From NCBI GenBank assembly GCA_964531275.1, contig CAZHDZ010000002.1, forward strand, positions 58,180-122,179: DNA of 64,000 nt, read 5' to 3'. Positions 1-28,902 of the stretch are shown piece after piece. The first letter of the stretch is position 1; each line of letters starts with the position of its first letter. A program made the translations under genes and the position numbers. The notes under the pieces were generated by a model. That model was not told the DNA's origin. It searched no databases and worked only from the letters and a program-made list of their open reading frames with translations. The DNA comes from an uncultured Gammaproteobacteria bacterium. GTDB lineage: Bacteria > Patescibacteriota > Microgenomatia > Levybacterales > GWA1-39-11.

Positions 1-3000
1 AACACAAGATGTTACGTACACGCTTCCTCTAGATGACGGATCAAATAATTATGTTCTAACAACTGATGGTTCTGGGTTGTTGTCATGGCAGTCAGCATCT
101 GGCGTTGGTGCAGGTACCATAACAGCAGTCGGAAACGTTCTTTCAGGAACGGCATTTACTGGAAGCGATTCTCTTTCAAACAAAGGAAACACTCTCGTAT
201 TTGAAGGATCAACTTCAGTTGATGATGCGAATGACATTACGCTAACTGCAAGCAATCCTGTCTCATCCATAATATTTACGCTTCCAGATCTTGGTACAAA
301 CGGCACTTTTGCATTCCTTGAGGGTCTCCAGACTTTTACAGGGGCAAAGACCTTTAATGACATCACCATTGCCGATACAAACATCCCACTGTCAGGAGGA
401 AATACCACTCTGGACGTGACAGGTGGTGCAACTAGAACACTTACGTTGCTCAACTCAACAGGAGGTCAGGTAGCTGATTTTGATCTCTCAGACGGCTCGC
501 TATTAACTGCAGGTACATCAAGACTCACTAATGCAGGAGCTCTTCAAAATATAACCGGGTACAGCCAGTCATCCGGAAACTTCAGCCAGAGTGGCTCTGG
601 TAGTTTCTCAACAGGAACCGGGGCAGTATCTCTTAATGGCGCGACGACTACATCAACAACATTGGTAGTAGGGACCACATTAACAACCGGTGGAAGTGCA
701 AGCGTTTCTGGGAATCTAACTCTTGAAGGTGCTGGTCGATCGATTCAAACAACTGAGAACAACACATTAACACTTGGTGGCGCAACAACCGGAAATATTG
801 ACCTTAACGAAAATACCTATATTCTAGGAAGCAACACATTTAGTGTTGGTACAGGTCTTACTTCGCTTGGAGGAGCAATTAATGTAACCGGCGTTGCTAC
901 GTTTGATAACAACATTACCCAAACGGGTTCATCAACATTCTCAACAGGAACCGGTAATGTTACTTTGAACGGCAATACTACTGTTTCTACTGGTGTTTCT
1001 CTCACAGCAAACGGCCCGGTTGCTCTCGATCCTGATGGTGGTAATGACATTGTTCTTACAACTGCATTCGGAAGTGGTTCATACCTGCAAATAATCGGTC
1101 TTGATACTCAAACAGGTACTCAGCTTTGTATAGATGGTAGTAACCAAGTTGTTAAATGTAGCGCGGGGTCTACAACTTTGCAAGGGGCATATGATGGCGG
1201 CAATACAATAACAACCGCAAATAGCCGTGATATTGCAATTAATCTTGCCGGAAACGAGAATCTAACAGCTACAACATCTGCCGGTTCTAATGGTTATACA
1301 TCTTTTGCTTTGGCAAACGGATCAAATCCAAATCCACCATCCCAATTAGTGCTTATAGATAATCAGGATACAAATGAAGCCCTTCCAGCAGGACTAAGAA
1401 TAAAATCAGCAGGCGGAGGAATAACAACTGCAATTGATCTCTCTGATTCAGATATAGTAAATGCCCTTTCATTGGGTGCAAATGACGTTACTGCAACAAG
1501 CTTTGCAATAACCGGAAGCAATGGAAATATTTCAACAAATGGCACACTAACTGCTCTTGGAGATATTAATGCCAACTCGGGGGTTGTCGCAACAACCCAA
1601 ACCACTGCTTCTCTATTTAACTCAACTGTTACAAATCTTTCAGTTGGCAATGCCGCAACTACGCTTTCATTGGGAGCAGGAACAGGGACAACTACTGTAA
1701 ATAATGCCCTTAATGTAACTGGTCTTTCAACCTTCAATGCGGGGGCAACAATTCCATCAGGTCAGACACTGACGGCAAATGGACCTGTTGTTATCAATCC
1801 AAACCTTGGAAATGATATAACGCTTACAACTGATTATGTTGCTGGATCTGATCTGTATGTACCTGGTTTGGAGACGCCTGGAACTGCCGGAACTGCACTT
1901 TGTATTGAGACAGGCACTGACAGAGTTACAAAATGTTCTGCGTCAACATTTACACTCCAAGGAGCATATGACGGAGGAAATACAATCCTGACAACCGGTG
2001 GACGTGATATAGAATTTGATCTTGCCTCAGATGATAACTTTGCAATTACTACCGTTGCAGGATCGGTAAGCTACTCGGCTTTTGCTCTTGCAGATGGTTC
2101 AAATAGTGCGCCAGCTGGGCAACTAATATTAGTTGAAAATCAAGATCTTAATGAAGTTCTTGCCTCCGGCATAAAAGTTCAGTCTGCTGCAGGTGCAATC
2201 ACAAATGCACTTGACCTTTCAGATGCAGAAATAGTTAATGCGATATCCTTTGGCTTGAACAATATTGATGGTACTAACTTTGATGTCACCGGATCTAATG
2301 GGAATGTTACAACCGCAGGAGACATAGCGATAAATGGTGGAAATCTTACTACCACCCAAGCTGCATTTAATATCTTTAACACAGGTGTTGCTACATTAAA
2401 TATTGGCGGTGATGCAACAGCAATTTCTCTTGGAGATGGAACAAGTGTCACAACAATTAATGACGACCTTGTTGTATCAGGCGGAGTTCTTGATGCACTT
2501 TCTGCTCTTGCTCGAGTTGATTCATTGCAAGTTGGTGGAGGCTACGGTTCGACAGGTACAACAATCACAAATGCAGGAAATATCTCAACAAATGGAACTC
2601 TTACTGTTGATGGTATTTCAACACTAACTGGCTCTATCACAACTGCAGGGGATATTGCTGTAAATGGTGGAAATGTTACAACAACAGCAGGTACTGCTTA
2701 CCTATTTAATAGCGGTGCTACAACATTAAATATCGGTGGTGCTGCAACAACCCTTTCTCTTGGAGCATCAACAGGCACAACAACCGTTAACAACAACCTA
2801 ACGGTATCAGGTCTTATCTTGGCAAACGGCGGTATAACTATTCCAGCAGGTGAAGAACTGGCCGCAAGCGGAAGCGCTTCATTTGCACCAGACTTTACAA
2901 ATGACATAACATTCAATACTGATTCTGACTCCACAATCATCCTAAATGGAATTGGAACCGGAAGTGGAAACAGTCTCTGTCGAGAAGCTGGCACGAATAA

Positions 3001-6000
3001 TTTAGTTGAGTGTTCTGCCTCATCAATCACTTTGCAATCTGCATACAATGGCGGAAATACTATCTCAACTTCAGGTGGTCGAGATATTGCATTCACATTA
3101 AGTAACACTAACTTCAGCGCAACCGCTGCTGCTGGAACCAACTCATTCTCGCAATTTGCACTTGCTAACGGATCAAACGCAAATCCTGCAGGACAGGTTG
3201 TGTTAGTTGAAAATCTTGATACCGACCAGGCCATCGCAAGTGGCATTAGAATCCAGGCAGCCTCTGGAGGAATTACAAATGCACTCGATCTTTCAGATCC
3301 AGAGATTGTAAATGCTTTGTCTCTTGGAGCAAATGATATTACTGCAACTAACTTCTCAATTACAGGATCAACAGGTGCCTTTGCAACAAGCGATTCTATT
3401 ACTGCTTCAGGAGATATCAATGCCAACAGTGGAACAATTGCTTCTAATCAAGCAGCTGGGTTCTTATTTAATGCAGGTGTCTCTAATCTTTCCATAGGCG
3501 AGGATGCATCAACAATATCTCTTGGAGACGCGACAGGTACGATAACAATAAATAACCAGACACTCGCTCTTCCAAATGCAACTTCAATTACAGCAGCAGG
3601 TGCAGGACTTACCATTGGTTCTGTAACCGTGGGTGGTGGTTATGGAACGACTGGCACAACACTTTCAGGAAATGGGGACATTCAGACAAATGGTGCGCTA
3701 ACAGTTGATGGTATCTCTCAACTGTCTGGTAATGTTACGACCAACGGAGATTTGGCAGTTAATGGTGGCAACATAACCTCAACTCAAACGACCGCGAATC
3801 TATTTAACGCAACAGTAACAACCTTAAATATCGGAAGTGCAGCAACAACTGTTAGTTTGGGCGCAAACACCGGTACGACAACCGTAAATAATAATCTAGC
3901 TGTTTCGGATGCATTAACAGTTGGCCAACTTGCTACATTTAACGGTGGCGCTACTATTTCAAATGGAGAACGATTCTTGGCTTCTGGGTCAGCTGAATTT
4001 AATCCGAGTGGTTCAAATGACGTTTCAATTGCCGTTAGCTATAGTGCTGGTTCATACCTCCACATAACAGGTCTTGATACTCAGACCGGTACGACTCTTT
4101 GTATTGATGGATCAAGCAATGTTGTAAGATGCTCAGCTGCTTCAATCACATTGCAGTCTGCATATGATGGTGGAAATACAATTTCAACAACCGGTGGACG
4201 AAATATTGCGTACGTTCTCGCGAATGATGATGACTTTACGGTTACTACACCAGCAGGATCAACTGGTCAAAGCATCTTCTCACTCGCTAACGGCGGAGCA
4301 ACAAGTCCTTCAGAGCTTATCCTTGTATCAAACAATGATGTAGATACAACAATTGCCAACGGAATAACTATAAATTCTGCAGGAGGAGTTATTACTGACG
4401 CTCTTGATCTATCGGACTCTGAAATTGTAAACGCATTAAATCTTGGAGCAAATGATATTACCTCTTCCAACTTTACACTCACCGGTAGCAACGGAAATAT
4501 TTCAACAAATGGAACAATAACTGCTACTGGAGACATAACGACAACCGGCAATCTAGCTGTTAATGGTGGAAATATTACAACTACATCGACTGGCACTGCT
4601 GAAGTATTTAACTCAAATGCTACTGCTCTCAATATTGGTGGCGCTGCCGGCACAATCTCTATCGGTAATGGAACAAGTGTCACAACGGTTAATGATGATC
4701 TCGTTGTCTCTGGGGGCGCCCTTGATGCTCTCTCTGCTCTTGCCCGAGTTGACGGGTTACAAGTTGGTGGAGGATACGGTTCGACAGGTACAACTATTAC
4801 AAATGCTGGAAATATCTCAACCAATGGAACTCTTACTGTTGATGGTATTTCAACACTAACTGGATCTATCACAACTGCAGGGGATATTGCAGTAAATGGC
4901 GGAAATGTTACAACAACAGCTGGTACTGCTTACCTATTTAATAGTGGTGCTACAACATTAAATATTGGAGGGGCTGCAACTGCTATTACACTTGGAGCAA
5001 CCACAGGTACAACAACGGTAAGAAATAATTTGTCAGTATTAGGAAGTGCAAATGTCACCGGGTTCTCAACATTCAACGACAGAACGACTATTACTAACGG
5101 TCAGCAATTTAACGCATCAGGATCTGCTAACTTTAGTCCAAATATTGACAACGATGTTGTGATCAACACTGACGCTGATTCCTTCCTAACGCTTAATGGC
5201 CTTACCACTCCTGGTATTGCAGGGGACGCACTTTGTGTAGATGCATCAAATAACGTAACAAAGTGTTCTACAAATTCTGTTACTTTGCAATCTGCATACA
5301 ACGGCGGAAATACTATCTCAACCAGCGGTGGAAGAGATATTGCTTTTACTCTTAACAATACTAACTTCAGTGCAACTGCAGCAGCAGGAACCAACTCATT
5401 CAGTCAATTTGCATTGGCAAATGGATCTAATGCAAATCCTGCAGGACAAGTTGTGTTAGTTGAAAATCTTGATACAGACGAAGCAATCGCAAGTGGTATT
5501 AGAATCCAGGCTGCCTCTGGAGGAATTACAAATGCACTTGATCTTTCAGATCCTGAGATCGTAAATGCATTATCTCTTGGGGCGAATAACGTAGTTGCAA
5601 CCAATTTCTCAATAGCAGGATCAACTGGATCTATCACAACTGCAGGGGATATTGCTGTAAATGGTGGAAATGTTACAACAACAAATACAACAGCTGCATT
5701 ATTTAATACAAACGCTACAACTCTTTCTATCGGTGGTGCCGCAACGACCTTAACTCTTGGTAATGCTGCCGGCACAACTGCAGTTGCCGGAGGGCTTACT
5801 GTTGGTGGTGGATATGGATCAACCGGTGTAACGTTGTCCTCCGCAGGGGTAATTCAAGCGAACGGAGCCTTAACTGTTGACGGTATCTCAACTTTAACAG
5901 GATCTGTTACAACCGCCGGAGACATTGCGGTTAACGGCGGAAATGTTACGACAACAGCTGGTACTGCTTACTTGTTTGATACTAATGCTACAACATTAAA

Positions 6001-18000: not shown

Positions 18001-21000
18001 GACTTCTGCAGGAGGAGCTATTACAACGGCTCTTGATGTGAGTGCATCTCAAATTGGTACAGCATTAAGCTTCGGTGGTAACGACATCTCTGGGACGGCA
18101 TTCTCTGTAACGGGTAGCAATGGAAATATAACCTCCTCAGGGGATATTGCTATTAATGGTAATGACATAACGACAACAACAGCTGCAGGTGCAAATATTT
18201 TCAATACGAATGCAACATCTGTAAATATTGGAGGCGCAGCAACGGCTTACTCAATCGGTGGATCAAGTGCAACAGGACATCTAAGAGGAACATCTGTAAT
18301 ATTTGATGACGCGACGACAATCGATGCAACACTAGCAACGATAAATGGTTCAATCCTTACTTCCGGAGGCGGCTACACAAATACCGGAGTAACATTGGCT
18401 GCAAATGGAGATGTAAGTGCTGACGGAATTCTTACGGTCGGAGGAGCTGCCTCAATTACAGGAGCTGTTACATTAACAAATGATATCGCTGTTAACGGTG
18501 GAGACCTCACCTCAACAGCCACAACCTTCAATCTACTTGCTTCTCCAACAACTATTAATTTTGGTGCAGGTGCTTCGACTGCAATAAATATAGGAAATAC
18601 AGCAGGCACAACAACAGTTAATAGTAATCTAACAGTTGCTTCTGGTAAGACATTGCTTGCTCAGGGTGTATCAACATTTACCCCTAGCAGCACAAATGAT
18701 GTAACAATCAATACGGATGCTGACTCATCATTTATTGTTACTAGCTTGACAGATGTTACTGGTGATAACGTTTGTGTAGATGGCACTGGAGTTATTGGAA
18801 CCTGTGACTCTGCTTCTTCAAGCTTGCAAGCTGCTTACGATGCTGGTAACAATATTACGACCACAAGTTCTCGTGACATAGAATTTGACCTTTCAACGAC
18901 CGGAACTGATTCAAGTTTTGTAGTGTCTACCCTCGCTGGCGCAACAGGCTCAACGCTCTTTAATCTTGAGGATGGATCAAATGCAACACCACCTCAACAG
19001 TTGGTTCTTATTAATAATGCAGATACAAATGAGCCATTAGCTGCCGGACTTAAGATAACAGCTGCTGCTGGAGGAATTACAACAGGTATTGATGTCAGTG
19101 ACCCAGACGTTGTGATAGGAATAAGTCTTGGTGCGTCAAATATTGATGGAACGAGCTTTGATGTGACTGGGTCTTCCGGAAATATTACATCCTCTGGTGA
19201 CCTTGCACTTCACGGTGGTGATATAACTACAACAAATACTACAGCTACAGTATTTGATACAGCAGCAACAACTGTAAATGCATTCGGTGTCGCTTCAACT
19301 TTAATACTTGGTGCTAACAATAGTGGAACCGCAACTATTAGAAATCAAACTATTAGCTTCCCATCTGCAACTGCTGTTAATGCAACAAGTGCAACCGGCA
19401 ACTTCAGCGCTCTAACAACAGGTGGTGGATATGCTTCTACTGGTACTTCAATCTCAGCAGCTGGTGTAATCCAAACAAAGGGTGCGCTAACAGTCGACGG
19501 TATATCGACGTTGACTGGTGCAGTAACTGCTGAAGCTGGGATAACCATTGATGGTGCAACTCAATCAAATCTAATTGCTGCAAAATCAACTGCCAACCTA
19601 TTTAATACAACGGCAACTACAATTAACTTTGGTGCAGCTGCAACGACAGGTATAAATATTGGAGCTTCAGGTGGAACTATTGCTATCGCAGGTCCAGTAA
19701 CAATAGCAAACGGTCAAACTCTTACCGCGAATGGAGCAGCTACTATTGGAGACGGTGGTGACGCGATTGCTCTTTCCGGAACTACAGTTTCATTAACTGC
19801 AAATGGAGCAGGAAATGATATAACTGCAAATCTGGTTGACGCTAATACAGACGCTCTGGACATTCAACAAGGGACAGATAACTACATTAATATAAATACA
19901 ACTAACGGTTCTGAAAATATCTCATTTGGAAATACCGGGACTAATCCATCATTCTCATTCCTTGGATCTGGTACAACTACCATGGGTGGTAACTTAGCGG
20001 TAAATGGTGGTACCATTTCTACAACGCAAACATCAGGGACAATTTTTGCTTCCCCAACTACCCTCTCTATCGGTACCGCTGCAACTACATTCTCGTTAGG
20101 TGCAGGAAGCGGCACTACTACTATCAATAATGGCCTAACGGTAAGTGGTGCTACGACAAATATCGCATCAACAGCAATCAATCTTACGGGCAATAGCACA
20201 GTTCTTGACATGACAGGGACCGGAACTCTTGGAATCAATACAACAACTGATCGTGCAGTAACTTTTGGAGCAGGAGCATTTACTGTTGAGTCCAACTCTA
20301 TAAATCTTTCAGGAACCGCTCCTGCAATTGCTGCAACGACTAATGCCACAAACTTGACAATAAATGCAGGGACAACTGGCTTGGTGCAGATCGGTGGTAC
20401 ATCAACAGGGAATTTAGAGCTTGGAGGAGGATCGGGATCTACCGGATGTACGCTTACAAATAATACAGGAGACTTCGCTTGTTCTGGAGGTATTACTACA
20501 ACAGACACAACTGGTACGGTTAATTTCGGCTTCTGGACAAAAGACTTTAATACAGGGATCATCTCCCCAGTAACTGGTACTGATGTTCTTGCTATTACTT
20601 CCTCATCAACGACAAATGGAGCGCTATCACTGACAACTTCAGCTCTTCAATCTTCCGGAGTTGCTGGATTCAATAATGCAGTCACAATCACAGGAACTGC
20701 AGGTTCATCTACTTACTATGGACAAAGATTGACACTTACTAATAGCGGCACAACTAACGCAAATACTGCATATGGACAGCACATCTCATTTGTTGGAGCA
20801 GGAAGTTTGGCAAATACCATGACTGGTCTTTATGTTGATGTAACAACAGCAAATGCCAGTGATACAACATATGCTGCAGCATTTATGAACGGAAATGTTG
20901 GTATTGGGGATGCTTCGCCAACTGCCCCTCTTACTGTTGGCTCAGGAGACTTATTCCAAGTAGCAGCAACTGGAAATGTAACGTTTAATTACACTACACC

Positions 21001-24000
21001 AACTGTTACTTTTGGAAATGGTGGAACACTCGCCTTTAGAGACGGAACAAGTGACATTCTAAGACTCCAAGACTGGAATACATCTCAGACATTCCTAAGA
21101 GTTGGCGCACACGGAACAACAAATGGTGCGATCTTCTTTGGCTCATCTGGAGCTGGAACAATGGAGCCTTCAATCTCAGCATCTGCATCCGGTAACCTAT
21201 GGGTACAAGCACCAGGCGGAACAACAATTGTAGGAAGTGGAATTGGAGATATTACCATTAATCCTGGAACGGGAACAAATCAGGTTTACGTAAATCTAAA
21301 TACAGGAGGATCTGGTACAGGAGACTTTAATGTTAGGACAAATGGAACAAGCTTCCTAACGTTATCCGAGGTTGGTGCGTCAACCTTCACACAACCTATC
21401 AACCAAAAAGTAACGGTAAGTGCGCCAGGAACAACCCTTGGTTCAACAACTGGTGTTACAGGCGGAGTATTTGACATAAATGCTGATACGTCTACTGCAA
21501 ATACTGTAGGCATGACCATTGACTTTACAAGCAATGACGGAGGAGCTTCAGGAAGTGATCTTTATGCGCAAAGAATAAATTTAATTCAAAATGATGCTGA
21601 CTCAAATCTTTTTGGATTACATATAGGCCTTGCTGCAACAAGTGCAACTATCGGGGATAGTAAATTGGTAGACTGTCTGCTATGCCTTCAAAATCTAGAA
21701 AATCAGTCAGGCGCTATAGAATCGGCTATAAGAATAAGAGGAACAGCAGCTGCTGGTGCTATAACAAACGGGCTTAATATGAGTGGCGCAACTGATATTA
21801 CAAATGACATTGTTCTTCAAAATGGCGAAGTGATTGATAACAATACGAACGGAACCGTTGCTGTAACAGCTACCTCAACAACATTCTCGGGTGATATAAC
21901 CGTCACAGGTAACGACATAACATTTGGAAATGCCGAAACAATCTCCAACGGGACAAATGGAAGGATTACTGTTGGAGGAGCAGATCTGGCTCTTTCATCA
22001 ACCACTGGTGACATCATTTTTGGAAATGGTGAAACAATAGATAACGACACAAATGGCGTTGTTAACATCAACGGAAGAGTCCAATTTGATGCAACATCTG
22101 ATGACAACGAAAGACTTTGCCATACTGGTGCTGATGGTGCGTCTCTAACCAATATACTTCTCGAAGACTGTACGGTTAGCGGAGAAGACTTTGCAGAGTG
22201 GGCTATAGTTGGAACTCCTACAGCGGAGCCTGGAGATCTTGTATATGTTGTAGGTAATTTACCAAGTGACCCTACCCTGACACTAAAAGATTTGACTACC
22301 ACTCAATATCAAAGCAGTGTTTCTGGAATAATAAGCACAAATCCATTTATAGATATCCTTGGAGACGAACAATACAAGGGCAAGCCAAATGCAAAACCAA
22401 TTGCACTTGCAGGAAGAGTGCCAGTAAAGGTATCAACTGAGAATGGAAATATTAAGGTCGGAGATGCCCTTGTTGCCTCATCAATTCCTGGAGTTGCAAT
22501 GAAGGCTACGCAAAAGGGTATGATAATTGGATTTGCTGAAGAAGATTATGATGGGACCACGAGGGTTAGTGCTCAAGTCCTAAAGCAAGAAGAGGTCTTT
22601 AACTCAGACCTAGATGACAGGACTGAATATCACTCAAACCCTGCTGCTTGGGACTCTTCTGTAGGAAAGATCATGACATCAATAAATTCGTTCTTCTACG
22701 ACCCAAATTATGCGACCGCATACACTGGAAATGAAGATTGGAACCACACGGGTGACTTTACCGTGAGCCAGACATTATTTGCGTACGATGTAGCATTTGG
22801 AATAGGTGGTGAGCTAACAGTAGATGGAGCAGGAAGTCTCTCTACGACAGGCTCAATCACGTCAAGCGCTTTGACATCGCAGACAGCAAATTTTGGAGAT
22901 GCAGCACAATTTGCAATTGACGAGAATGGGAATGCGACCACTTCGGGAAGTTTGACTTTTGATGCTGCAGTACTAAGCTCCGAAACAAACAATTTTGTAA
23001 GCAGGTTAACTCTGGATACAAACGAGAATAATGATCCTACTAAATTTGTCTTTAAAAATGCTGCCGGTCTTGAGCTCTTGGGACTAGATAGCAATGGAAA
23101 TGCAACAATTGCAGGAACCTTGACGACTATGGTTGGCAACTATGATATTGCCGAAGATTATCCAACCCGTGACAACACAATTGAAGCCGGAGATATCGTG
23201 TCAGCAGATAGAGTCCTTGACGGATTTGTCTCAAAGTCAAATACTGCATACGACAAGACAGTTATCGGTATCTATTCTGAGAAGCCAGGATTTAGACTCT
23301 CTCAAGCAGGTGGCACGATAAATGGAGAAAGAGCTATTCCAATTGCCCTTGCCGGTAGAGTTCCTGTTAAGGTTAACAATGAAAATGGACCTATAAAGAA
23401 AGGTGATGCCCTCACTACTTCTTCAACCCCAGGATACGCAATGAAGGCTGTAAAAGCAGGTCAGATAATTGGTAAAGCATTAGAGGACTTCAACGGAACA
23501 ACAGGCAAGGTTCTTACCTTCGTTAACGTGAGCTTTGCTGATCCTCAAAATATACTTGAGAGAATTGCTTTGGATTCTGACAACAATATTGCAATCTCGA
23601 AGGTCAGCTCTGATGCTGTCAAGCTTCCTGCTAACCTAACAATTGCAGGAAAAGAAATAAATGGAACACTAACCGACGCACTTCTTGCAGTAGGAAATGA
23701 GATAACAAATGTAAAGACTGGTATTTCAAGTCTTGAAACTGCTGTTCTTGGTCTTGATACAAAGGCAAACGCCCTTGAGGAAAAGGTTTTGACGCTTGAA
23801 GAGCAACAGGCATCAACTGCAGCAGAACTCGCAAGAACAATCGATGGTACAAATGAGCTTGATTCTAGAGTAAGCTCAACCAGCGCAAGTCTTTCGGATC
23901 TAAATAGTAGACTTGATGCATTACTTTCTCAAATTGCATCAGGTTCAACATCTGCTTCAGGATCTGCAATTGGAACAGGCTCTGCTAGCTACAATGAATT

Positions 24001-24781
24001 GGTTGCAGGATTGACTGAAGCAAATGACTTGATTTCTTCAGGGTCTGCTATTCCTTCTTCAGTTAATGTCACATCAAGTGCACAGCTTGGAGATGAGATC
24101 GAGGCTTACAATCTTACAGTTAAGGATTCATTTACATCGCTTGGTCTTTCATATCTTGGAGGAACATCTATTTCTGGAGACGTTACTGTTGCTGGAACAT
24201 CATATCTATCAGACACAAGCATTGTCGGCGTTGTGACAATTGATGACATAACTCTTACAGAAAGCTCAATTAATGTTAAAGGTGTTGCCGATGAGAATGG
24301 CGTTATCTCTGGCGGAACTCTATTTATCCAGAATTCACCACTTGCAGGAAGCATTGATCTCTTCAATGGAGGTGTAACAATTCAAAAAGATGGAACAATT
24401 TCAGCGAGAGGAAATGTTAAGGTTGAAGGTGACCTAAATGTTGAAGGTGCAATTACAACTACAGCAATTGCTGGAGAGAATATCAAGGCACATGACGCTT
24501 TGTATGTAGCCTCAGACGGAATTGTTAAGAAAGCTGACAGTAGTTTTGCAGACCGTACAAATGTAATTGGAGTAGCTGCAAAAGACGCCAAGAAAGGGGC
24601 CAAAGTTACAGTAATAATTGGTGGAAAGGCAAAGGGCTATCAAGGACTCGATGCAGGAGTGAAATACTACCTCACAACCAGTGGACAAATGACCCCGACT
24701 CTTCCTTTAAGCCAGGAGAATGCAGTCACTATTGGAGTTGCTTTCTCAGAGACTGAGTTGGTGATACAGACGGGAAGATGA
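1..24781 (+). CDS. Giant repetitive cell-surface protein (fibrillar adhesin / beta-helix-like), 5'-partial. The frame is open from nt 2 (TQDVTYTLPLDDGSNNYVL... precedes the first Met at 77), so the product is longer than 8,234 aa.
   Basis: One uninterrupted 24.7-kb ORF ending in TGA at 24779-24781. Extreme T/G/N/S/A composition. ~330-370-aa super-repeats alternate a two-Cys module (LC[IV]DGSNxVVKCS...LQSAYDGGNTI...ALANGSNANPAGQVVLVENLDTDEAIASGIRIQ...DLSDPEIVNALSLGAN) with a Gly/Thr beta-strand module (GGGYGSTGTTITNAG...TVDGISTLTG...AVNGG...). The last ~1,500 aa are non-repetitive and carry a duplicated ~60-aa module (IALAGRVPVKV...GDAL...PG.AMKA..G.IIG) plus a coiled-coil stretch. Confidence 0.9.
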   Translation, partial: TQDVTYTLPLDDGSNNYVLTTDGSGLLSWQSASGVGAGTITAVGNVLSGTAFTGSDSLSNKGNTLVFEGSTSVDDANDITLTASNPVSSIIFTLPDLGTNGTFAFLEGLQTFTGAKTFNDITIADTNIPLSGGNTTLDVTGGATRTLTLLNSTGGQVADFDLSDGSLLTAGTSRLTNAGALQNITGYSQSSGNFSQSGSGSFSTGTGAVSLNGATTTSTTLVVGTTLTTGGSASVSGNLTLEGAGRSIQTTENNTLTLGGATTGNIDLNENTYILGSNTFSVGTGLTSLGGAINVTGVATFDNNITQTGSSTFSTGTGNVTLNGNTTVSTGVSLTANGPVALDPDGGNDIVLTTAFGSGSYLQIIGLDTQTGTQLCIDGSNQVVKCSAGSTTLQGAYDGGNTITTANSRDIAINLAGNENLTATTSAGSNGYTSFALANGSNPNPPSQLVLIDNQDTNEALPAGLRIKSAGGGITTAIDLSDSDIVNALSLGANDVTATSFAITGSNGNISTNGTLTALGDINANSGVVATTQTTASLFNSTVTNLSVGNAATTLSLGAGTGTTTVNNALNVTGLSTFNAGATIPSGQTLTANGPVVINPNLGNDITLTTDYVAGSDLYVPGLETPGTAGTALCIETGTDRVTKCSASTFTLQGAYDGGNTILTTGGRDIEFDLASDDNFAITTVAGSVSYSAFALADGSNSAPAGQLILVENQDLNEVLASGIKVQSAAGAITNALDLSDAEIVNAISFGLNNIDGTNFDVTGSNGNVTTAGDIAINGGNLTTTQAAFNIFNTGVATLNIGGDATAISLGDGTSVTTINDDLVVSGGVLDALSALARVDSLQVGGGYGSTGTTITNAGNISTNGTLTVDGISTLTGSITTAGDIAVNGGNVTTTAGTAYLFNSGATTLNIGGAATTLSLGASTGTTTVNNNLTVSGLILANGGITIPAGEELAASGSASFAPDFTNDITFNTDSDSTIILNGIGTGSGNSLCREAGTNNLVECSASSITLQSAYNGGNTISTSGGRDIAFTLSNTNFSATAAAGTNSFSQFALANGSNANPAGQVVLVENLDTDQAIASGIRIQAASGGITNALDLSDPEIVNALSLGANDITATNFSITGSTGAFATSDSITASGDINANSGTIASNQAAGFLFNAGVSNLSIGEDASTISLGDATGTITINNQTLALPNATSITAAGAGLTIGSVTVGGGYGTTGTTLSGNGDIQTNGALTVDGISQLSGNVTTNGDLAVNGGNITSTQTTANLFNATVTTLNIGSAATTVSLGANTGTTTVNNNLAVSDALTVGQLATFNGGATISNGERFLASGSAEFNPSGSNDVSIAVSYSAGSYLHITGLDTQTGTTLCIDGSSNVVRCSAASITLQSAYDGGNTISTTGGRNIAYVLANDDDFTVTTPAGSTGQSIFSLANGGATSPSELILVSNNDVDTTIANGITINSAGGVITDALDLSDSEIVNALNLGANDITSSNFTLTGSNGNISTNGTITATGDITTTGNLAVNGGNITTTSTGTAEVFNSNATALNIGGAAGTISIGNGTSVTTVNDDLVVSGGALDALSALARVDGLQVGGGYGSTGTTITNAGNISTNGTLTVDGISTLTGSITTAGDIAVNGGNVTTTAGTAYLFNSGATTLNIGGAATAITLGATTGTTTVRNNLSVLGSANVTGFSTFNDRTTITNGQQFNASGSANFSPNIDNDVVINTDADSFLTLNGLTTPGIAGDALCVDASNNVTKCSTNSVTLQSAYNGGNTISTSGGRDIAFTLNNTNFSATAAAGTNSFSQFALANGSNANPAGQVVLVENLDTDEAIASGIRIQAASGGITNALDLSDPEIVNALSLGANNVVATNFSIAGSTGSITTAGDIAVNGGNVTTTNTTAALFNTNATTLSIGGAATTLTLGNAAGTTAVAGGLTVGGGYGSTGVTLSSAGVIQANGALTVDGISTLTGSVTTAGDIAVNGGNVTTTAGTAYLFDTNATTLNIGGAATAITLGATTGTTTVRNNLSVLGSANVTGFATFNDRTTVTNGQQFNASGSANFSPNIDNDVVINTDADSFLTLNGLTTPGTAGSTLCVDASNNVTKCSASSITLQSAYNGGNTISTSGGRDIAFTLNNTNFSATAAAGTNSFSQFALANGSNANPAGQVVLVENLDTDEAIASGIRIQAASGGITNALDLSDPEIVNALSLGANNITATNFSITGSNGDVTTNGSVTAAGDINANSGVIATTQTTGTIFNVGVTNLSIGNDATTLSLGDSTGTTTINNNLTVSGTALDALSALARVSSLQVGGGYAGGTGSTLATNGDVSLNGILTVDGTSTLTGDVTAAGDVAVNGGDITTTATTFNLLNATVTTLNIGGATTAYTVGGTAATGNIQGTTINLPQATVLSATSATAGFSVVNVGGGYAGGTGSTLATNGDASINGILTVDGASTLTGNVTATGDLAVNGGDLTTTASSFNLLTSPTTVNFATDATTLSIGDGTGTTTVNNALTITGATTANGNFTANAISTFNLTGGNDLTISTNNGSNSNLIITDLATTTGTTLCITGGNVVVKCAGAAAGLQASYDAGNTILTTGSRDIEFELDQNDNFTVTTIAGTTGHSIFALQDGTNTSPATQLILVENQDTDEAIASGITVTSAGGAITSGIDLSDTDIVDAIAIGANNINGSIFDVDGATGNITAGDIAVNGADITTTSTGTANVFNTNATTLNLGGVTTTYTLGGTAATGNIQGTTVNFPQATVLSATGATANINILNVGGGYGTTGATIATNGNISTNGTLTVDGISTLTGNVTATGDVAINGGDLTTTAGTFNLLASPTVLNIGAAATTLELGAGTGTTTVNNNLQVDGTTTSTGLITANAGATVSNGQTFQALGVSTFNPDSTNDVTFVTDGAGGSDVIFQNLAVQPGDNLCLEDGSDRIVICASSAISLQSAYDGGNTITTTPGLDIAFTLDDSNFSATVAAGTTAFSQFALQDGSNANPAGQIVLVENLDTDQAIANGIRIQSAAGGITNALDLSDPEIVNALSLGANNITATNFSVTGSNGNLSTNGTITAAGNINANSGTINTTQTTGNIFNSVATLNAGTSATTYTIGGTTATGNLRGTTINFPNATVIDGSLATAGFDVVNVGGGYAGGTGSTLATNGDVSLNGALTVDGISTLTGNVTATGDVAINGGDLTSTATTFNLLASPTTINFGAGATTGINIGNAAGLVTLANDVTINGDALDALSALARVDSLQVGGGYGTTGVTITNAGTIQANGNLTVDGTSQLTGNVTATGDVAVNGGDLTTTASSFNLLASPTTLTIGAAASTLTLGVNSGTATINNTTLSLPNASTINATGATANLSVVNVGGGYSGGSGSTLYTNGDASINGILTVDGASTLTGDVTATGDLAVNGGDLTTTAGTFNLLASPTVLNIGAGATTLNLGATTGTTTVRNNLKVSLVDNSPDALDIEQNGDNYINVDTTDGSEAIAFGSTAVAPTYTFLGSGLTTMGGNLNVNGGTLASSQATVNLFNAAPTTTVNAFGNASAITIGANNSGTLTVRNDVVTFASADTFNATSATANINILNVGGGYGTTGATIATTGDISTNGTLTVDGISTLTGDVTATGDVAINGGDLTTTASSFNLLASPTTINFGAAASTLNIGAITGTTTIRNWLTVNGASTFNGNVIVADNRSFDASGAATFTPSGSNDITFAVDDASGSFINITGLDTTAGTTLCLDGSNNLVLCAGATLSLQNAYAGGNTISTTGDDIEFILNGSDNFTVTTTAGATGGSVFALADGSNATPPTQLVLVENQDTNETLTSGIAVSSAGGAITSGIDLTDTDIVDAIAIGANNINGSIFDVDGATGNITAGDIAVNGADITTTSTGTANVFNTNATTLNLGGVTTTYTLGGTAATGNIQGTTVNFPQATVLSATGATANINILNVGGGYGTTGATIATNGNISTNGTLTVDGISTLTGNVTATGDLAVNGGDLTTTAASFALLDTTATQIDFAGAAALLTIGAGTGTTTLDNNLTVNLVDANADALDIQEGTRNYINVNTSNGSENISFGNATTNPSYSFLGSGTTTFTGPATANGALNANGVSTFNPTTSGDVNFVMDEAAGSYINIVGLDTVSGDPLCLDGSENLVLCAGASLSLQNAYNGGNTISTTGSSIAFTLNSADNFSVTTAAGATGYSVFALADGSNATPPTQLVLVENQDTNQAITNGIRVISSGGAITNGIDLSDTDIVNALNLGANDITASSFSITGSSGNITTAGDLAVNGADITTTSTGTAYVFDTNATALNIGGAAGAISIGNSTSTTTVNDDLTVTGNAFDALAALARVDSLQVGGGYGTSGVTITNAGTIQANGNLTVDGTSQLTGNVTATGDVAVNGGDLTTTASSFNLLASPTTLTIGAAASTLTLGVNSGTATINNTTLSLPNASTINATGATANLSVVNVGGGYSGGSGSTLATNGDVSLNGALTVDGISTLTGDVSAIGDIDIDGGDITTTQTSFNLLNANATTVNFAGDATTLNIGDGAGVTTLNNNLRANLRSNTADALDIQQGSDNYINISTLTSTENISFGNAVINPTYSFLGTGATTFNGDVNINSGTIQSNQGTINVFNTTSTGVNAFGAATTLTLGATSGTATVRNSTLSLPNARVGIGTASPLTSLHVVRPLTLPVNGKAAVIVDQLENQDIFTASASGTTRFTVSNAGNVVASGDLAVNGTGTADITSTNTQASLFNTTVTNLSIGGAATTVSLGVGGGTTTVNSALTSTGLITANAGATIASGQTLLAQGVSTFTPNLTNDVTINTDSDSSLIITGLTDVTGSILCVSSNVVGTCDATSQSLQAAYDNGNTIDTNDSSDIAFTLMNTAADSNFTVTTEQGGSGYTHLALEDGTNNVAPPAQLLRIENQDTDDILAAGIKVESEAGLIATGIDLSDTEINDAISIGANDIEGTNFDVDGSNGNIVTAGTLAVNGGTISTTQTAGTIFSTPTNVSLGAAATTFTLGANNAGTFNVRNDTVTFSAADTFNATSATANVNVLTTGGGYGSTGTTIGATGDIQTKGALTVDGISTLTGNVTATGDVAVNGGDLTTTASTFNLLASPTTVNLGAGTTTALNLGNASGTTNVLGNLTIASGKTLLAQGASTFTPSGTNDVTINTNPGGTAYFIINNLAGVTGSALCTETSTNIVGTCNASSQSLQAAYDNGNTIATTNSRDIAFTLTNDTTDSKFSVTTATGSTAGVEFLRADGAGTADPTQQVLIQNLDSNRALPVGLKVAGVTGGDVTVAVDLSDSNIVSALSLGANDIIATNFGITGSNGNITTSGAVAINSGNLTTTNTSANVFDTNATGVNAFGAATTLNIGAGSGTATINNATISFPTASAINAAGAALAVDSIAVGGGYGGSGIDLTAAGDISADGALTIDGTSQLTGSVTTGGDLAVNGAGTADITTTNTGTATLFNTTATTVNIAGGATSAVNVGNASGTVNINGNLVMGSSRSITSTGPVSFTPNSTNSVTITGDTDSFLTLVGVQPASGSTPILCLDGSSHVVTCDNTAILSLQSAYGYGNTIDTTSARDIEFNLTTAGTDSSFAITTEAGATGFTNISLEDGTNTAPPAQLVLINNEDSNEALPAGLVISSTGGGAVTTALDVSDPAILTAISLGGNDITGSVFDVDGATGDTTVGDIAVNGNDITTTQVAAANIFNTNANAINLGGVAATYTIGATTATGNLRGTTINFPNATSIVANGATANISALEVGGGYSGASGVSLSTTGDIQANGALTIDGISTLTGNVTATGDVAINGGDLTTTATTFNLLASPATVNFAAGASTAVNVGHASGTTNILGNLSIASTKSFTSQGAATFTPTGTTDVTINTDSDSSLILVGMNDVTGAAICIENSTNVIGTCDAASQSLQTAYDNGNTILTTDARNLDFTLDATSTDPNFLIKTAAGGQGNTQFSLEDGSNATSPTELVLIRNNDSNEALTSGLRMTSAGGAITTALDVSASQIGTALSFGGNDISGTAFSVTGSNGNITSSGDIAINGNDITTTTAAGANIFNTNATSVNIGGAATAYSIGGSSATGHLRGTSVIFDDATTIDATLATINGSILTSGGGYTNTGVTLAANGDVSADGILTVGGAASITGAVTLTNDIAVNGGDLTSTATTFNLLASPTTINFGAGASTAINIGNTAGTTTVNSNLTVASGKTLLAQGVSTFTPSSTNDVTINTDADSSFIVTSLTDVTGDNVCVDGTGVIGTCDSASSSLQAAYDAGNNITTTSSRDIEFDLSTTGTDSSFVVSTLAGATGSTLFNLEDGSNATPPQQLVLINNADTNEPLAAGLKITAAAGGITTGIDVSDPDVVIGISLGASNIDGTSFDVTGSSGNITSSGDLALHGGDITTTNTTATVFDTAATTVNAFGVASTLILGANNSGTATIRNQTISFPSATAVNATSATGNFSALTTGGGYASTGTSISAAGVIQTKGALTVDGISTLTGAVTAEAGITIDGATQSNLIAAKSTANLFNTTATTINFGAAATTGINIGASGGTIAIAGPVTIANGQTLTANGAATIGDGGDAIALSGTTVSLTANGAGNDITANLVDANTDALDIQQGTDNYININTTNGSENISFGNTGTNPSFSFLGSGTTTMGGNLAVNGGTISTTQTSGTIFASPTTLSIGTAATTFSLGAGSGTTTINNGLTVSGATTNIASTAINLTGNSTVLDMTGTGTLGINTTTDRAVTFGAGAFTVESNSINLSGTAPAIAATTNATNLTINAGTTGLVQIGGTSTGNLELGGGSGSTGCTLTNNTGDFACSGGITTTDTTGTVNFGFWTKDFNTGIISPVTGTDVLAITSSSTTNGALSLTTSALQSSGVAGFNNAVTITGTAGSSTYYGQRLTLTNSGTTNANTAYGQHISFVGAGSLANTMTGLYVDVTTANASDTTYAAAFMNGNVGIGDASPTAPLTVGSGDLFQVAATGNVTFNYTTPTVTFGNGGTLAFRDGTSDILRLQDWNTSQTFLRVGAHGTTNGAIFFGSSGAGTMEPSISASASGNLWVQAPGGTTIVGSGIGDITINPGTGTNQVYVNLNTGGSGTGDFNVRTNGTSFLTLSEVGASTFTQPINQKVTVSAPGTTLGSTTGVTGGVFDINADTSTANTVGMTIDFTSNDGGASGSDLYAQRINLIQNDADSNLFGLHIGLAATSATIGDSKLVDCLLCLQNLENQSGAIESAIRIRGTAAAGAITNGLNMSGATDITNDIVLQNGEVIDNNTNGTVAVTATSTTFSGDITVTGNDITFGNAETISNGTNGRITVGGADLALSSTTGDIIFGNGETIDNDTNGVVNINGRVQFDATSDDNERLCHTGADGASLTNILLEDCTVSGEDFAEWAIVGTPTAEPGDLVYVVGNLPSDPTLTLKDLTTTQYQSSVSGIISTNPFIDILGDEQYKGKPNAKPIALAGRVPVKVSTENGNIKVGDALVASSIPGVAMKATQKGMIIGFAEEDYDGTTRVSAQVLKQEEVFNSDLDDRTEYHSNPAAWDSSVGKIMTSINSFFYDPNYATAYTGNEDWNHTGDFTVSQTLFAYDVAFGIGGELTVDGAGSLSTTGSITSSALTSQTANFGDAAQFAIDENGNATTSGSLTFDAAVLSSETNNFVSRLTLDTNENNDPTKFVFKNAAGLELLGLDSNGNATIAGTLTTMVGNYDIAEDYPTRDNTIEAGDIVSADRVLDGFVSKSNTAYDKTVIGIYSEKPGFRLSQAGGTINGERAIPIALAGRVPVKVNNENGPIKKGDALTTSSTPGYAMKAVKAGQIIGKALEDFNGTTGKVLTFVNVSFADPQNILERIALDSDNNIAISKVSSDAVKLPANLTIAGKEINGTLTDALLAVGNEITNVKTGISSLETAVLGLDTKANALEEKVLTLEEQQASTAAELARTIDGTNELDSRVSSTSASLSDLNSRLDALLSQIASGSTSASGSAIGTGSASYNELVAGLTEANDLISSGSAIPSSVNVTSSAQLGDEIEAYNLTVKDSFTSLGLSYLGGTSISGDVTVAGTSYLSDTSIVGVVTIDDITLTESSINVKGVADENGVISGGTLFIQNSPLAGSIDLFNGGVTIQKDGTISARGNVKVEGDLNVEGAITTTAIAGENIKAHDALYVASDGIVKKADSSFADRTNVIGVAAKDAKKGAKVTVIIGGKAKGYQGLDAGVKYYLTTSGQMTPTLPLSQENAVTIGVAFSETELVIQTGR

Positions 24782-25970: not shown

Positions 25971-26175
25971 GCCTATATTTCAATTTTACGTCTAGTATGT
26001 AAGAACGCAATATGCCAGTTGCGTTCCTTACATCAAACCAGTCTAAGCGAGATAGCTACCTTACAGTTCTGCTGAGATACGTATTACGAGTATAAAGAAA
26101 TTGTTGGTCAAGATTTTCGACACTTGCTGTTTTTGCTCTTGTTTTTCCCAAATGAGATTTTGTAGTCGTAAAGCG

Positions 26176-28797: not shown

Positions 28798-28902
28798 TAC
28801 CTAAAACTTATCATATGTCTATTTTTTGTCAATGTATCATTATTTTTCTATTAATTCTTGCACTATATATAGGTATGCTATACTGAATGTAACCTCAAAT
28901 TT

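What the first reader, a model, noticed from the sequence alone, without database searches (positions are those of the whole stretch)
1..24781. Giant (>8,200 aa, 5'-open) hyper-repetitive surface protein with long near-identical intragenic DNA repeats
The ORF covers 39% of the window and is still open at nt 1. Its super-repeats of ~330-370 aa alternate a two-cysteine module (LCxDGSNxVxKCS...LQSAYDGGNTI...LVENLDTDEAIASGIRIQ) with a Gly/Thr beta-strand module, and then give way to a unique ~1,500-aa C-terminal region. Several repeat copies are essentially identical at the DNA level over hundreds of bp. 7918-8387 matches 11440-11909, offset exactly 3,522 nt, with identical 68-aa antisense peptides. 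9853-10053 matches the 3' part of 13138-13677 (~13138-13338), offset 3,285 nt. 2461-2780 matches 4681-5000. Identity at this level inside one gene implies recent gene conversion or unequal recombination, and is a ready substrate for length and antigenic variation of a surface fibre. It is also an assembly hazard. The two-Cys module is not an obvious member of a named adhesin repeat family that I can recognise.
Basis: seen in the sequence. Interest (0 to 1): 0.7.

Follow-up and report, generated by a model that had tools for sequence, protein, structure and literature searches.

The report
Giant phage-fibre-like surface protein gene
The first 24.8 kb of the window is the 3' part of one real gene for a protein of more than 8,259 amino acids. 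It comes from an ultra-small (CPR/Patescibacteria) bacterium and is most likely a cell-anchored surface fibre built from phage tail-fibre parts plus a rare, unnamed two-cysteine domain. A few patches of its internal repeats have recently been copied onto one another.

Summary
One frame is open from nt 2 to the stop at 24779-24781, giving 8,259 aa with the 5' end missing.

**Architecture**
- Aa 332-6715 are a mosaic (A-C-[B-C]n) x15.
- A is a 195-aa domain with a Cys-x9-11-Cys hairpin.
- B (44 aa) and C (55 aa) are shaft repeats.
- A unique 1,544-aa C-terminal region follows.

**Repeats**
- Most repeats are old: A copies are 41-93% identical, median 49%.
- Two patches are exactly identical: 433 nt (7998-8430 = 11520-11952) and 239 nt (9881-10119 = 13166-13404).

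**Homology**
- B and C match phage tail-fibre families.
- The conserved C-terminal domain folds like the phi29 gp12 C-terminal autochaperone and phage decoration proteins, and it ends phage tail fibres.
- Module A has no Pfam, NCBIfam or PDB match and only 323 hits among 1.84 billion representative proteins.

**Context**
- Relatives in CPR genomes have the same architecture. Their ORFs exceed 7,000 aa while open at both ends, and their N-termini carry a MerR-type HTH followed by one TM helix.
- dN/dS against a 93%-identical strain is 0.06.

Verdict: a real, constrained, probably host-binding surface fibre. It is a new variant of a known kind.

The parts
2..24781 (+). 3' part of one giant coding sequence (8,259 codons plus stop). 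The start codon lies upstream of the window.
   Evidence: Translation is open from nt 2. The ORF list gives a stop at 24781. dN/dS is 0.06 against L001/L002.
2..994 (+). Aa 1-331: fibre segment before the first A module. It contains the motif YTLPLDDGSNNYVLTTDGSGLLSW.
   Evidence: 80% identical to L006 and 83% to L010. In L006 at least 3,333 further open codons lie upstream of the match.
995..20146 (+). Repeat mosaic (A-C-[B-C]n) x15, n = 1-4, aa 332-6715. It holds 15 A, about 19 B and 38 C modules.
   Evidence: HMMs built from the copies, hmmsearch domain table.
995..1576 (+). A module 1 (two-Cys domain; Cys 376/386)
   Evidence: (E 3e-86)
1760..2356 (+). A module 2 (Cys 634/645)
2849..3427 (+). 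A module 3 (Cys 993/1004)
3965..4546 (+). A module 4 (Cys 1367/1377)
5099..5683 (+). A module 5 (Cys 1745/1755), the copy that was modelled
   Evidence: AF2 places a hairpin between the two Cys.
6137..6718 (+). A module 6 (Cys 2091/2101), 93% aa identical to module 5
7550..8131 (+). A module 7 (Cys 2561/2571)
8648..9232 (+). A module 8 (Cys 2928/2939)
11075..11653 (+). A module 9 (Cys 3736/3746)
12293..12871 (+). A module 10 (Cys 4141/4151)
14384..14971 (+). A module 11 (Cys 4838/4847)
15437..16039 (+). A module 12 (Cys 5191/5202)
16520..17116 (+). A module 13 (Cys 5551/5561)
17588..18178 (+). A module 14 (Cys 5905/5916)
18644..19234 (+). A module 15 (Cys 6258/6268)
7998..8430 (+). 433-nt exact repeat, copy 1. 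It spans the end of A7, a C module and the start of a B module.
   Evidence: Exact k-mer extension. Flanks are 62-68% identical.
11520..11952 (+). 433-nt exact repeat, copy 2 (offset 3,522 = 1,174 codons)
9881..10119 (+). 239-nt exact repeat, copy 1
13166..13404 (+). 239-nt exact repeat, copy 2 (offset 3,285 = 1,095 codons)
4835..6645 (+). Tandem duplicate of a whole super-repeat: 4835-5607 vs 5873-6645, 87% identical, offset 1,038 nt. 74% of mismatches fall at third codon positions.
10397..10546 (+). D insert 1 ('ALDIEQNGDNYINVDT...')
12137..12286 (+). D insert 2
13685..13834 (+). D insert 3
19853..20002 (+). D insert 4
20147..24778 (+). Unique C-terminal region, aa 6716-8259
   Evidence: No full A/B/C modules after aa 6715. 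55% identical over its full length to P0121.
22175..22555 (+). Conserved beta-rich domain, copy 1 (aa 7392-7518; 'DFAEW...GDLV...PIALAGRVPVKV...GD')
   Evidence: BLASTP to many CPR proteins; paralogue of copy 2.
23141..23548 (+). Conserved beta-rich domain, copy 2 (aa 7714-7849). Its fold resembles the phi29 gp12 C-terminal fragment and phage decoration proteins.
   Evidence: AF2 pLDDT about 95. Foldseek hits 3gqh at E 3e-4, prob 1.0, plus 8pkh, 8hdt_G, 5wk1_K and 6qyy. 63 viral loci at about 40% identity.
23753..23938 (+). Long helix, aa 7918-7979 (probable coiled coil)
   Evidence: AF2 helix at residues 229-290, pLDDT about 83.
24449..24778 (+). C-terminal ~110 aa (presumed distal tip), conserved in P0121, P0122, P0124 and P0126; fold not resolved
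   Evidence: Sequences. The AF2 model is low-confidence here.

Best explanation
This is the 3' two-thirds or less of a chromosomal gene of a CPR/Patescibacteria bacterium. It encodes a very long surface fibre anchored in the cell membrane.

**Anchor.** By homology, the missing N-terminus carries a small cytoplasmic MerR-type HTH domain and one transmembrane helix (N-in, C-out). Everything in the window would then be extracellular.

**Shaft.** The shaft is a mosaic of three module types. Short B and C repeats are homologous to the shaft repeats of phage tail fibres. A 195-aa A domain of unknown fold is interspersed 15 times, and its one recognisable feature is a beta-hairpin closed by two conserved cysteines.

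**Tip.** Near the far end lie two copies of a domain that, in phages, ends tail fibres. It has the fold of the phi29 gp12 autochaperone and of trimeric capsid decoration proteins. A coiled coil and a conserved ~280-aa tip follow.

**Proposed function.** I infer that the protein assembles as a (probably trimeric) phage-fibre-like rod whose tip binds another cell, the host of this episymbiont.

**Repeat dynamics.** The repeat array is old and under purifying selection. It is occasionally homogenised in patches by intragenic gene conversion, and it grows by in-frame duplication of whole super-repeats.

**Shown versus inferred.**
- Shown: the ORF, the module map, the exact patches, homology to phage fibre modules, the fold of the C-terminal domain, constraint on the sequence, and the same architecture in relatives.
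- Inferred: the N-terminal anchor of this particular gene, the oligomeric state, surface exposure, and host binding.
For: - ORF and composition.
- Module map.
- No TM segment in the 8,259 aa, and 18 close Cys pairs.
- PHROG 4527 'short tail fiber protein' at E 4e-34; 17 of 18 B-C units hit it individually.
- Small homologues consist of 3xC or 3xB plus Peptidase_S74, or Mtd_N plus 3xC.
- C-terminal domain: pLDDT about 95. Foldseek matches the phi29 gp12 C-terminal fragment and decoration proteins at prob 1.0. 63 viral loci match at about 40% identity. In one of them it is the last ~115 aa of a 1,652-aa protein that hits four tail-fibre PHROGs.
- Relatives L006, L007, L009, L014 and L015 have the same A-C-B-C order and ORFs open across 12-21 kb.
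- L007 and L013 begin with a MerR_1/HTH_17 domain followed by a TM helix, and an ATP synthase gene lies upstream of L007. Many C-terminal homologues carry the same N-terminal HTH Pfams.
- Cellular context: PheS/PheT, ThrRS and tRNAs. The ThrRS cluster is named Moranbacteria.
- dN/dS is 0.06.
- Exact patches with sharp edges recur in six independent relatives, always at offsets divisible by 3.
Against: - The N-terminus of this gene is not in the window, so the anchor is inferred from relatives at 52-80% identity.
- No experiment or proteome shows that the protein is made, exposed or trimeric.
- The C-terminal 280 aa were modelled at low confidence, so nothing identifies a ligand.
- The giant protein itself has no Peptidase_S74 or Peptidase_G2 Pfam match.
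- Exact identity of the patches could be slightly overstated by assembler graph simplification.
Confidence: 0.6

Rival explanations
1. The fibre is a structural coat or spacer (an S-layer-like or glycocalyx-like envelope component that sets cell-cell distance or protects the cell) rather than a specific host adhesin.
For: - Strong purifying selection and little strain variation in the distal 2,300 aa, unlike many receptor-binding tips.
- Neighbours are envelope genes: a Wzy_C/TPR O-antigen-ligase-like protein, a PKD/CBM96 protein and a beta-lactamase-like protein. They are syntenic in a relative.
Against: - The phage parts used are those of receptor-binding fibres.
- A single N-terminal TM anchor with a distal conserved tip fits a reaching adhesin.
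- No S-layer (SLH or similar) domain was found.
Confidence: 0.2
2. The near-identical patches, and perhaps the copy number, are assembly artefacts (collapsed or mis-joined repeats, or polishing that homogenised copies). On this reading they are not real gene conversion.
For: - The gene breaks short-read assemblies. L001 and L002 end at window positions 17872-17880, and L003 and L004 end inside its 3' end.
- Exact repeats of 239-433 nt exceed typical k-mer sizes.
Against: - The frame stays open through all junctions, and every repeat offset is a multiple of 3.
- Similar exact patches of 198-553 nt occur in six independently assembled relatives.
- A 598-kb contig whose name suggests a long-read assembly carries 1,584-nt exact tandem repeats.
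- Graph collapse could erase a few SNPs but cannot create 433 identical bases between copies that are 62-68% identical next door.
Confidence: 0.12
3. It is a tail-fibre gene of a prophage, or of a phage-tail-like particle, integrated in the chromosome.
For: Shaft repeats and the C-terminal domain have phage homologues.
Against: - No phage genes lie in the 39 kb downstream.
- Synteny with housekeeping genes is conserved in a relative.
- Homologues start with an HTH plus TM next to an ATP synthase gene.
- Module A is essentially absent from IMG/VR. There were 2 marginal partial hits, and my HMM did not confirm them.
- The length exceeds 8,259 aa.
Confidence: 0.03
4. It is a programmed-variation locus, either a diversity-generating retroelement target or a phase-variable or antigenically variable adhesin.
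For: - Some small homologues carry the Mtd_N domain of the Bordetella phage DGR target.
- The repeats provide a substrate for recombination.
Against: - Pfam found no reverse transcriptase among the 20 largest window ORFs scanned.
- Mismatches between repeat copies show no adenine bias and sit at third codon positions.
- dN/dS is 0.06, with only a one-codon indel between strains.
Confidence: 0.03

Closest known systems
Phage tail fibres with C-terminal intramolecular chaperones (Peptidase_S74 type; phi29 gp12 type)
   Same: - The B and C shaft repeats match PHROG 4527/6002. They occur in small proteins that end in Peptidase_S74 or start with Mtd_N.
- The conserved C-terminal domain has the fold of the phi29 gp12 C-terminal fragment, and it is the last domain of phage tail-fibre proteins at about 40% identity.
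   Different: - It is a cellular, chromosomal gene.
- It is 5-20 times longer than a phage tail fibre.
- By homology it is anchored by an N-terminal TM helix instead of a virion-attachment domain.
- The chaperone-like domain is internal and duplicated.
- There is no S74 or G2 sequence match.
- It contains 15 copies of module A, which viral contigs essentially lack.
Giant membrane or surface proteins of CPR bacteria (for example the 1,392-4,163-aa proteins of Vampirococcus lugosii, PMC8080830)
   Same: - The host is an ultra-small episymbiotic bacterium.
- The protein is a membrane-anchored, very large protein proposed to mediate host recognition and attachment.
   Different: - Those proteins carry WD40, PKD, integrin, DUF11 or fibronectin domains. 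This one has none of them.
- This one is at least twice as long and is built from phage-fibre modules.
Very large and giant genes of Omnitrophota and other phyla (bioRxiv 10.1101/2023.11.21.568195)
   Same: - The protein is probably over 10,000 aa, in an ultra-small bacterium.
- The gene fragments assemblies.
- A role in cell-cell interaction is proposed.
   Different: - The Omnitrophota giants have many TM regions and SecA-DEAD-like domains. This protein has no TM segment in 8,259 aa and a different domain set.
- The passages of that paper I read do not list CPR among phyla rich in proteins of 10,000 aa or more.
Classical giant bacterial adhesins (RTX/BIg adhesins such as LapA, SiiE and MpIBP; LPXTG proteins Ebh and Embp; trimeric autotransporters)
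   Same: - It is a long repetitive rod with a distinct distal region.
- Repeat arrays evolve by duplication and conversion.
   Different: - No BIg, cadherin, FIVAR, YadA or autotransporter domains.
- No LPxTG motif, and one chance GGxGxD motif.
- The anchor is at the N-terminus rather than a C-terminal sortase signal or beta-barrel.

Membership tests
Phage tail fibre (S74-chaperone type) | Shaft repeats homologous to phage fibre repeats | tested here: met
   PHROG 4527 at E 4e-34. 17 of 18 B-C units match it individually. C and B modules occur in proteins with S74 or Mtd_N.
Phage tail fibre (S74-chaperone type) | C-terminal Peptidase_S74 intramolecular chaperone domain | tested here: not met
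   No PF13884 hit in any of the three pieces at E <= 0.1.
Phage tail fibre (S74-chaperone type) | Encoded among phage structural genes | tested here: not met
   Downstream neighbours are cellular genes. Relatives lie next to ATP synthase or PheT. The region upstream of the window was not seen.
Phage tail fibre (S74-chaperone type) | Homotrimeric fibre | not testable with these tools
   Only monomer prediction is available. The monomer model lacks intrachain sheets despite pLDDT 83.7, which is compatible with a trimer but is not evidence for one.
phi29 gp12-type C-terminal autochaperone / beta-tulip decoration-protein fold | Fold similarity | tested here: met
   Foldseek: 3gqh_A at E 3.3e-4, prob 1.0, TMt 0.53; 3suc; 8pkh; 8hdt_G; 5wk1_K at TMt 0.59; 6qyy. 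The modelled domain has pLDDT about 95.
phi29 gp12-type C-terminal autochaperone / beta-tulip decoration-protein fold | Sequence membership (Pfam Peptidase_G2 or PDB sequence match) | tested here: not met
   No Pfam hit. Neither phmmer nor the profile search against the PDB found gp12.
phi29 gp12-type C-terminal autochaperone / beta-tulip decoration-protein fold | Terminal position and autocleavage after assembly | tested here: not met
   For position: here the domain is internal and duplicated (aa 7392-7518 and 7714-7849), with 410 aa following. In phage L032 it is terminal. Cleavage cannot be tested.
CPR 'HTH-TM-fibre' large surface proteins (unnamed family seen here) | Conserved C-terminal domain 'ADYAExYP...GDVV...PVALxGRVPVKV...GD.LT.S..PG.AMKA' | tested here: met
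   Two copies are present. The domain aligns to more than 50 Patescibacteria proteins.
CPR 'HTH-TM-fibre' large surface proteins (unnamed family seen here) | N-terminal MerR/HTH_17 domain followed by a single TM helix | not testable with these tools
   The 5' end lies outside the window. The feature is present in relatives L007 and L013 and in P0131 and others.
RTX / LPXTG / autotransporter giant adhesins | BIg, cadherin, FIVAR or YadA repeats, plus RTX nonapeptides, an LPxTG signal or a beta-barrel anchor | tested here: not met
   No Pfam or NCBIfam hits. No LPxTG and one GGxGxD motif.
DGR variable protein | Template/variable repeat pair differing at adenines, plus a nearby reverse transcriptase | tested here: not met
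   No adenine bias in repeat mismatches. No RT among the 20 largest window ORFs scanned with Pfam.

The most novel reading that the evidence does not exclude
The protein is a membrane-tethered MerR-type DNA-binding protein whose extracellular part is a >10,000-aa, trimeric, phage-derived fibre. In other words, an ultra-small episymbiont has domesticated phage receptor-binding hardware both to grab its host cell and to report contact directly to its own chromosome, either by tension or by proteolytic release of the HTH domain. Module A would be a new disulfide-stapled domain specific to this cellular fibre.
Probability: 0.1. Interest if true: 0.85.

Novelty: new variant of a known kind. Interest (0 to 1): 0.55.

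Why it matters
CPR/Patescibacteria make up a large share of bacterial diversity and live attached to other cells. The molecules that choose and hold the host are mostly unknown beyond type IV pili.

- **A testable candidate.** This gene family takes up several percent of a roughly 1-Mb genome, is under strong purifying selection, and is assembled from phage receptor-binding-fibre parts. That makes it a concrete, testable candidate for the host-attachment organelle.
- **Two uncharacterised elements.** It defines a rare domain (module A, 323 representatives in 1.84 billion proteins) and an odd cytoplasmic HTH-TM anchor, neither of which has been characterised.
- **A practical warning.** The gene breaks short-read assemblies, so it is under-counted in MAG catalogues. 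Its exact-repeat patches need long-read confirmation.

Tried and rejected
**Sequence searches that found nothing**
- Pfam and NCBIfam on the whole protein returned only sub-threshold noise.
- PDB sequence searches found nothing. I tried single sequences and profiles of module A, the B-C unit and the C-terminal alignment.

**Structure searches**
- My recollection that the 'DxAEx...GD.V' domain is Pfam Peptidase_G2 was not borne out at sequence level. The fold match to phi29 gp12 was.

**Hypotheses tested and rejected**
- DGR or programmed variation.
- LPxTG or RTX anchoring.
- Prophage context.
- Module A in viral contigs: two marginal partial hits that my HMM did not confirm.

**Technical failures and limits**
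- Fetching the source contig upstream of the window failed. PheS is not on record in the look-up of encoding contigs, and no GTDB representative is identical, the best being 80%.
- An alignment of 53 full-length homologues failed internally, so I used 24 sequences.
- L007 and L014 lie on one contig in the same frame, which would make an ORF of more than 15,000 aa. The 6.5-kb gap between them could not be read, so this is not claimed.
Full report
**1. The observation**

One reading frame is open from nt 2 to a stop at 24779-24781. The tool lists the ORF from an internal TTG at 77, but translation from nt 2 shows no stop, so the gene continues upstream of the window. The visible product is 8,259 aa, rich in Thr (17%), Gly (13%), Ala (12%), Asn (10%) and Ser (9%). 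At this base composition the chance of 8,260 stop-free codons is about e^-494.

A regular-expression scan finds 15 copies of C-x9-11-C...LQxAYxxGN between aa 376 and 6258. The spacings range from 258 to 808 aa, and nine of the 14 fall between 346 and 378.

- 7918-8387 vs 11440-11909 is 94.3% identical.
- 9853-10053 vs 13138-13338 is 99.5% identical.
- 2461-2780 vs 4681-5000 is only 28% identical in that register. The real match is 2325-2787 vs 4554-5019 at 82%.

An exact-match scan gives two long perfect repeats: 433 nt (7998-8430 = 11520-11952, offset 3,522) and 239 nt (9881-10119 = 13166-13404, offset 3,285). The next longest exact repeat is 68 nt.

**2. Anatomy**

I built HMMs from the internal copies and scanned the protein with them. 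This resolves aa 332-6715 into (A-C-[B-C]n) x15 with n = 1-4.
- A is a 195-aa domain.
- B is 44 aa ('VGGGYG.TG...LTVDG.S.LTG').
- C is 55 aa ('GDIAVNGGDLTTT..FNLL...LNIGGAA..L.LG..GTTTVNN').
- Four 'ALDIQ.G..NYINV' inserts are also present.

After aa 6715 the sequence is unique for 1,544 aa.

The A copies are old. Pairwise protein identity is 41-93% with a median of 49%, and DNA identity has a median of 56%. Only A5 and A6 are close. They belong to an 87%-identical tandem duplicate of a whole 1,038-nt super-repeat.

All 36 cysteines fall in 18 pairs spaced 3-17 residues apart, and no window of 19 residues is hydrophobic enough for a membrane helix. Both features fit an extracellular protein.

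**3. Is it a real, constrained gene?**

Two contigs from other aquatic metagenomes (L001, L002) are 93% identical in DNA and cover the last 2,300 codons. Against the window they give dN 0.021, dS 0.35 and dN/dS 0.06, with a single one-codon indel. Mismatches between internal repeat copies sit mainly at third codon positions, 60-74% of them.

The gene is therefore translated and under purifying selection. The ten antisense ORFs of 160-260 aa inside it are by-products of its composition.

**4. The repeat patches**

Around the 433-nt patch, identity in 60-nt windows runs 62-68%, then 100% across the patch, then falls back to about 60%. The 239-nt patch is similar. Given the flanks, chance is excluded, at about 10^-81 and 10^-13.

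The patch edges do not coincide with module edges. The first patch runs from the last third of A7 into a B module. This is what a conversion tract looks like, rather than a module duplication.

Six independently assembled relatives show the same thing: exact intragenic repeats of 198-553 nt, always at offsets divisible by three.

Mismatches carry no adenine bias, and Pfam found no reverse transcriptase among the 20 largest window ORFs scanned. This is not a diversity-generating retroelement.

An assembly artefact cannot be excluded without reads. All four short-read contigs shown that carry the flanking gene end inside the giant gene. However, graph collapse could at most erase a few SNPs. It could not create the patches.

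**5. What the parts are**

Pfam, NCBIfam and PDB sequence searches find nothing significant for any part. The evidence for the phage connection comes from other sources.

*Shaft repeats (B and C).*
- PHROG 4527 ('short tail fiber protein') matches at E 4e-34.
- 17 of 18 individual B-C units hit that family, and 13 hit PHROG 6002, a virion structural protein.
- Among database homologues of a super-repeat, small proteins consist of three C modules followed by Peptidase_S74, three B modules followed by Peptidase_S74, or Mtd_N followed by three C modules. Others add endosialidase beta-barrel or pectate-lyase-like domains.
- B and C are therefore shaft repeats of the phage tail-fibre kind.

*Conserved C-terminal domain.*
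- The most widely conserved element of the C-terminal region is a ~130-aa domain present twice, at aa 7392-7518 and 7714-7849. Its consensus is 'ADYAExYP..GDVV...PVALxGRVPVKV..ENGPI..GD.LT.S..PG.AMKA'.
- AlphaFold2 models copy 2 at pLDDT about 95.
- Foldseek matches it at probability 1.0 to the phi29 gp12 C-terminal fragment (3gqh; also 3suc). It also matches a series of phage capsid decoration or cement proteins and the phi29 head-fibre base (8pkh, 8hdt_G, 5wk1_K, 9ocb, 6qyy). From prior knowledge, these are trimer-forming beta-tulip-type modules, and the gp12 fragment is an autochaperone.
- The same domain occurs at about 40% identity in 63 IMG/VR viral contigs. In the one examined in detail it forms the last ~115 residues of a 1,652-aa protein that matches four tail-fibre PHROGs.
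- A 62-residue helix follows (pLDDT about 83), then ~280 residues that were modelled poorly.

*Module A.*
- A profile search of 1.84 billion representative proteins finds only 323 carriers at E <= 1e-3 and 72 at E <= 1e-30. Most are proteins of 1,000-4,900 aa. The few with names are Saccharimonadales, 'Acidobacteriota' fragments and a Bacillota MAG, and some carry Kelch repeats.
- Viral contigs essentially lack it.
- The AF2 model of one super-repeat has mean pLDDT 83.7. DSSP finds only a hairpin at residues 60-62/68-70, exactly between Cys61 and Cys71, plus one short helix.
- I read this as a disulfide-stapled hairpin in a chain whose sheets may form only between subunits. That reading is inference.

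**6. Relatives and the missing N-terminus**

A scan of GTDB species representatives with aa 1-370 found 18 loci, the best at 80% identity, so the source genome is not itself a representative. Five of the loci (L006, L007, L009, L014, L015) show the same A-C-B-C order, with 8-15 A modules each. Their frames are open across the whole 12-21-kb loci, which means more than 7,000 aa with both ends missing.

In the closest relative, L006, at least 3,333 open codons precede the point that matches the window start. The window's protein is therefore probably longer than 10,000 aa. L007 and L014 lie on one contig in the same frame, which would give more than 15,000 aa. The 6.5 kb between them was not seen.

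Where the start is visible (L007, L013), the protein begins with a MerR_1/HTH_17 domain. A basic stretch and one hydrophobic helix follow, and then the fibre. The gene upstream of L007 encodes an ATP synthase subunit. Many C-terminal homologues from Patescibacteria (Uhrbacteria, Kerfeldbacteria, Blackburnbacteria and others) carry the same N-terminal HTH Pfams.

The window itself is cellular, with PheS/PheT, ThrRS, trigger factor and seven tRNAs. It comes from a 188,710-nt NCBI contig. Its ThrRS falls in a >=90%-identity cluster named Candidatus Moranbacteria. The nearest GTDB relatives are titled 'uncultured Gammaproteobacteria', which I take to be mislabelling of TPA MAGs. I did not test this.

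**7. Mechanism**

My best reading has confidence about 0.6. The protein is a type-II-anchored giant fibre, with the N-terminus in the cytoplasm and everything else outside. Its shaft is derived from phage tail-fibre repeats and is interrupted by 15 disulfide-stapled A domains. Its distal end carries two phage-type trimerisation or chaperone domains, a coiled coil and a conserved tip that binds the host cell.

Intragenic conversion and whole-unit duplication shape the repeat array without disturbing the frame.

Rival readings are:
- a structural coat rather than an adhesin (0.2);
- assembly artefact for the exact patches (0.12);
- a prophage fibre (0.03);
- programmed variation (0.03).

**8. 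Comparison with what is known, and novelty**

Giant surface proteins proposed as host-attachment factors are known in CPR. The Vampirococcus examples are 1,392-4,163 aa and carry other domains. Epibiotic growth of a cultured Saccharibacterium requires 'multiple adhesins'. Proteins of 10,000 aa or more have been surveyed, with emphasis on Omnitrophota and a different architecture.

In the searchable literature I found no description of a CPR fibre built from phage tail-fibre modules with a MerR-HTH/TM anchor, nor of module A. That search covers open-access text only.

I classify this as a new variant of a known kind, with moderate interest (0.55).

The most novel reading not excluded is that the cytoplasmic HTH makes the fibre a direct contact sensor (probability about 0.1).

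Noticed in passing
window 55263-55402: A 53-nt unit is repeated in tandem (2.2 exact copies, 2.6 at 89%) and runs into the end of tRNA-Leu(tag) at 55369-55452 (- strand). It looks like a partial tRNA duplication.
   Followed up: no
window 53180-53274: An exact 43-nt tandem repeat (2.2 copies) lies in the intergenic region between the DUF5660 gene and the trigger-factor gene.
   Followed up: no
window 42221-42285 (-): A degenerate tRNA-like remnant (Rfam tRNA, 31 bits) lies directly beside tRNA-Val(gac) at 42309-42384 and shares a 30-nt exact stretch with it. It may be the scar of a duplication or of an integration.
   Followed up: partly
window 24978-34811: The genes downstream of the giant gene are a beta-lactamase-like protein, a PKD/CBM96 protein (873 aa), a 1,045-aa protein with an N-terminal TM and no Pfam match, and a Wzy_C+TPR protein. 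Most recur next to the orthologous gene in relative L005; the PKD/CBM96 protein was not identified there. This suggests a conserved envelope or surface locus.
   Followed up: partly
L005 ~1650-1680: In the JGI relative the giant gene is interrupted by a frameshift in the middle of an A module ('...LKIAG|YPEEM*' continues in another frame as 'VSGGNVTTALDLSD'). This is either a sequencing error or a pseudogene.
   Followed up: partly
L018 635-8300: A different ORF of more than 6,163 aa, on a 598-kb Patescibacteria contig, contains a 1,584-nt unit repeated about five times with exact identity. It lacks A/B/C modules.
   Followed up: no
L020 7010-7562 and 15993-16545: Two adjacent large ORFs (>2,681 aa and 2,794 aa) in one MAG share a 553-nt exact stretch, which suggests conversion between neighbouring paralogous genes.
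   Followed up: no
L007 and L014 (contig CAYPEN010000001.1, 326182 to >371581): Both loci are open in the same reading frame on one contig. If the unseen 6.5 kb between them is also open, the gene would encode more than 15,000 aa in a MAG whose largest contig is 424 kb.
   Followed up: partly
window 2698-22302 (- strand): Ten antisense ORFs of 161-259 aa lie inside the giant gene. They are by-products of its codon composition, not genes.
   Followed up: no
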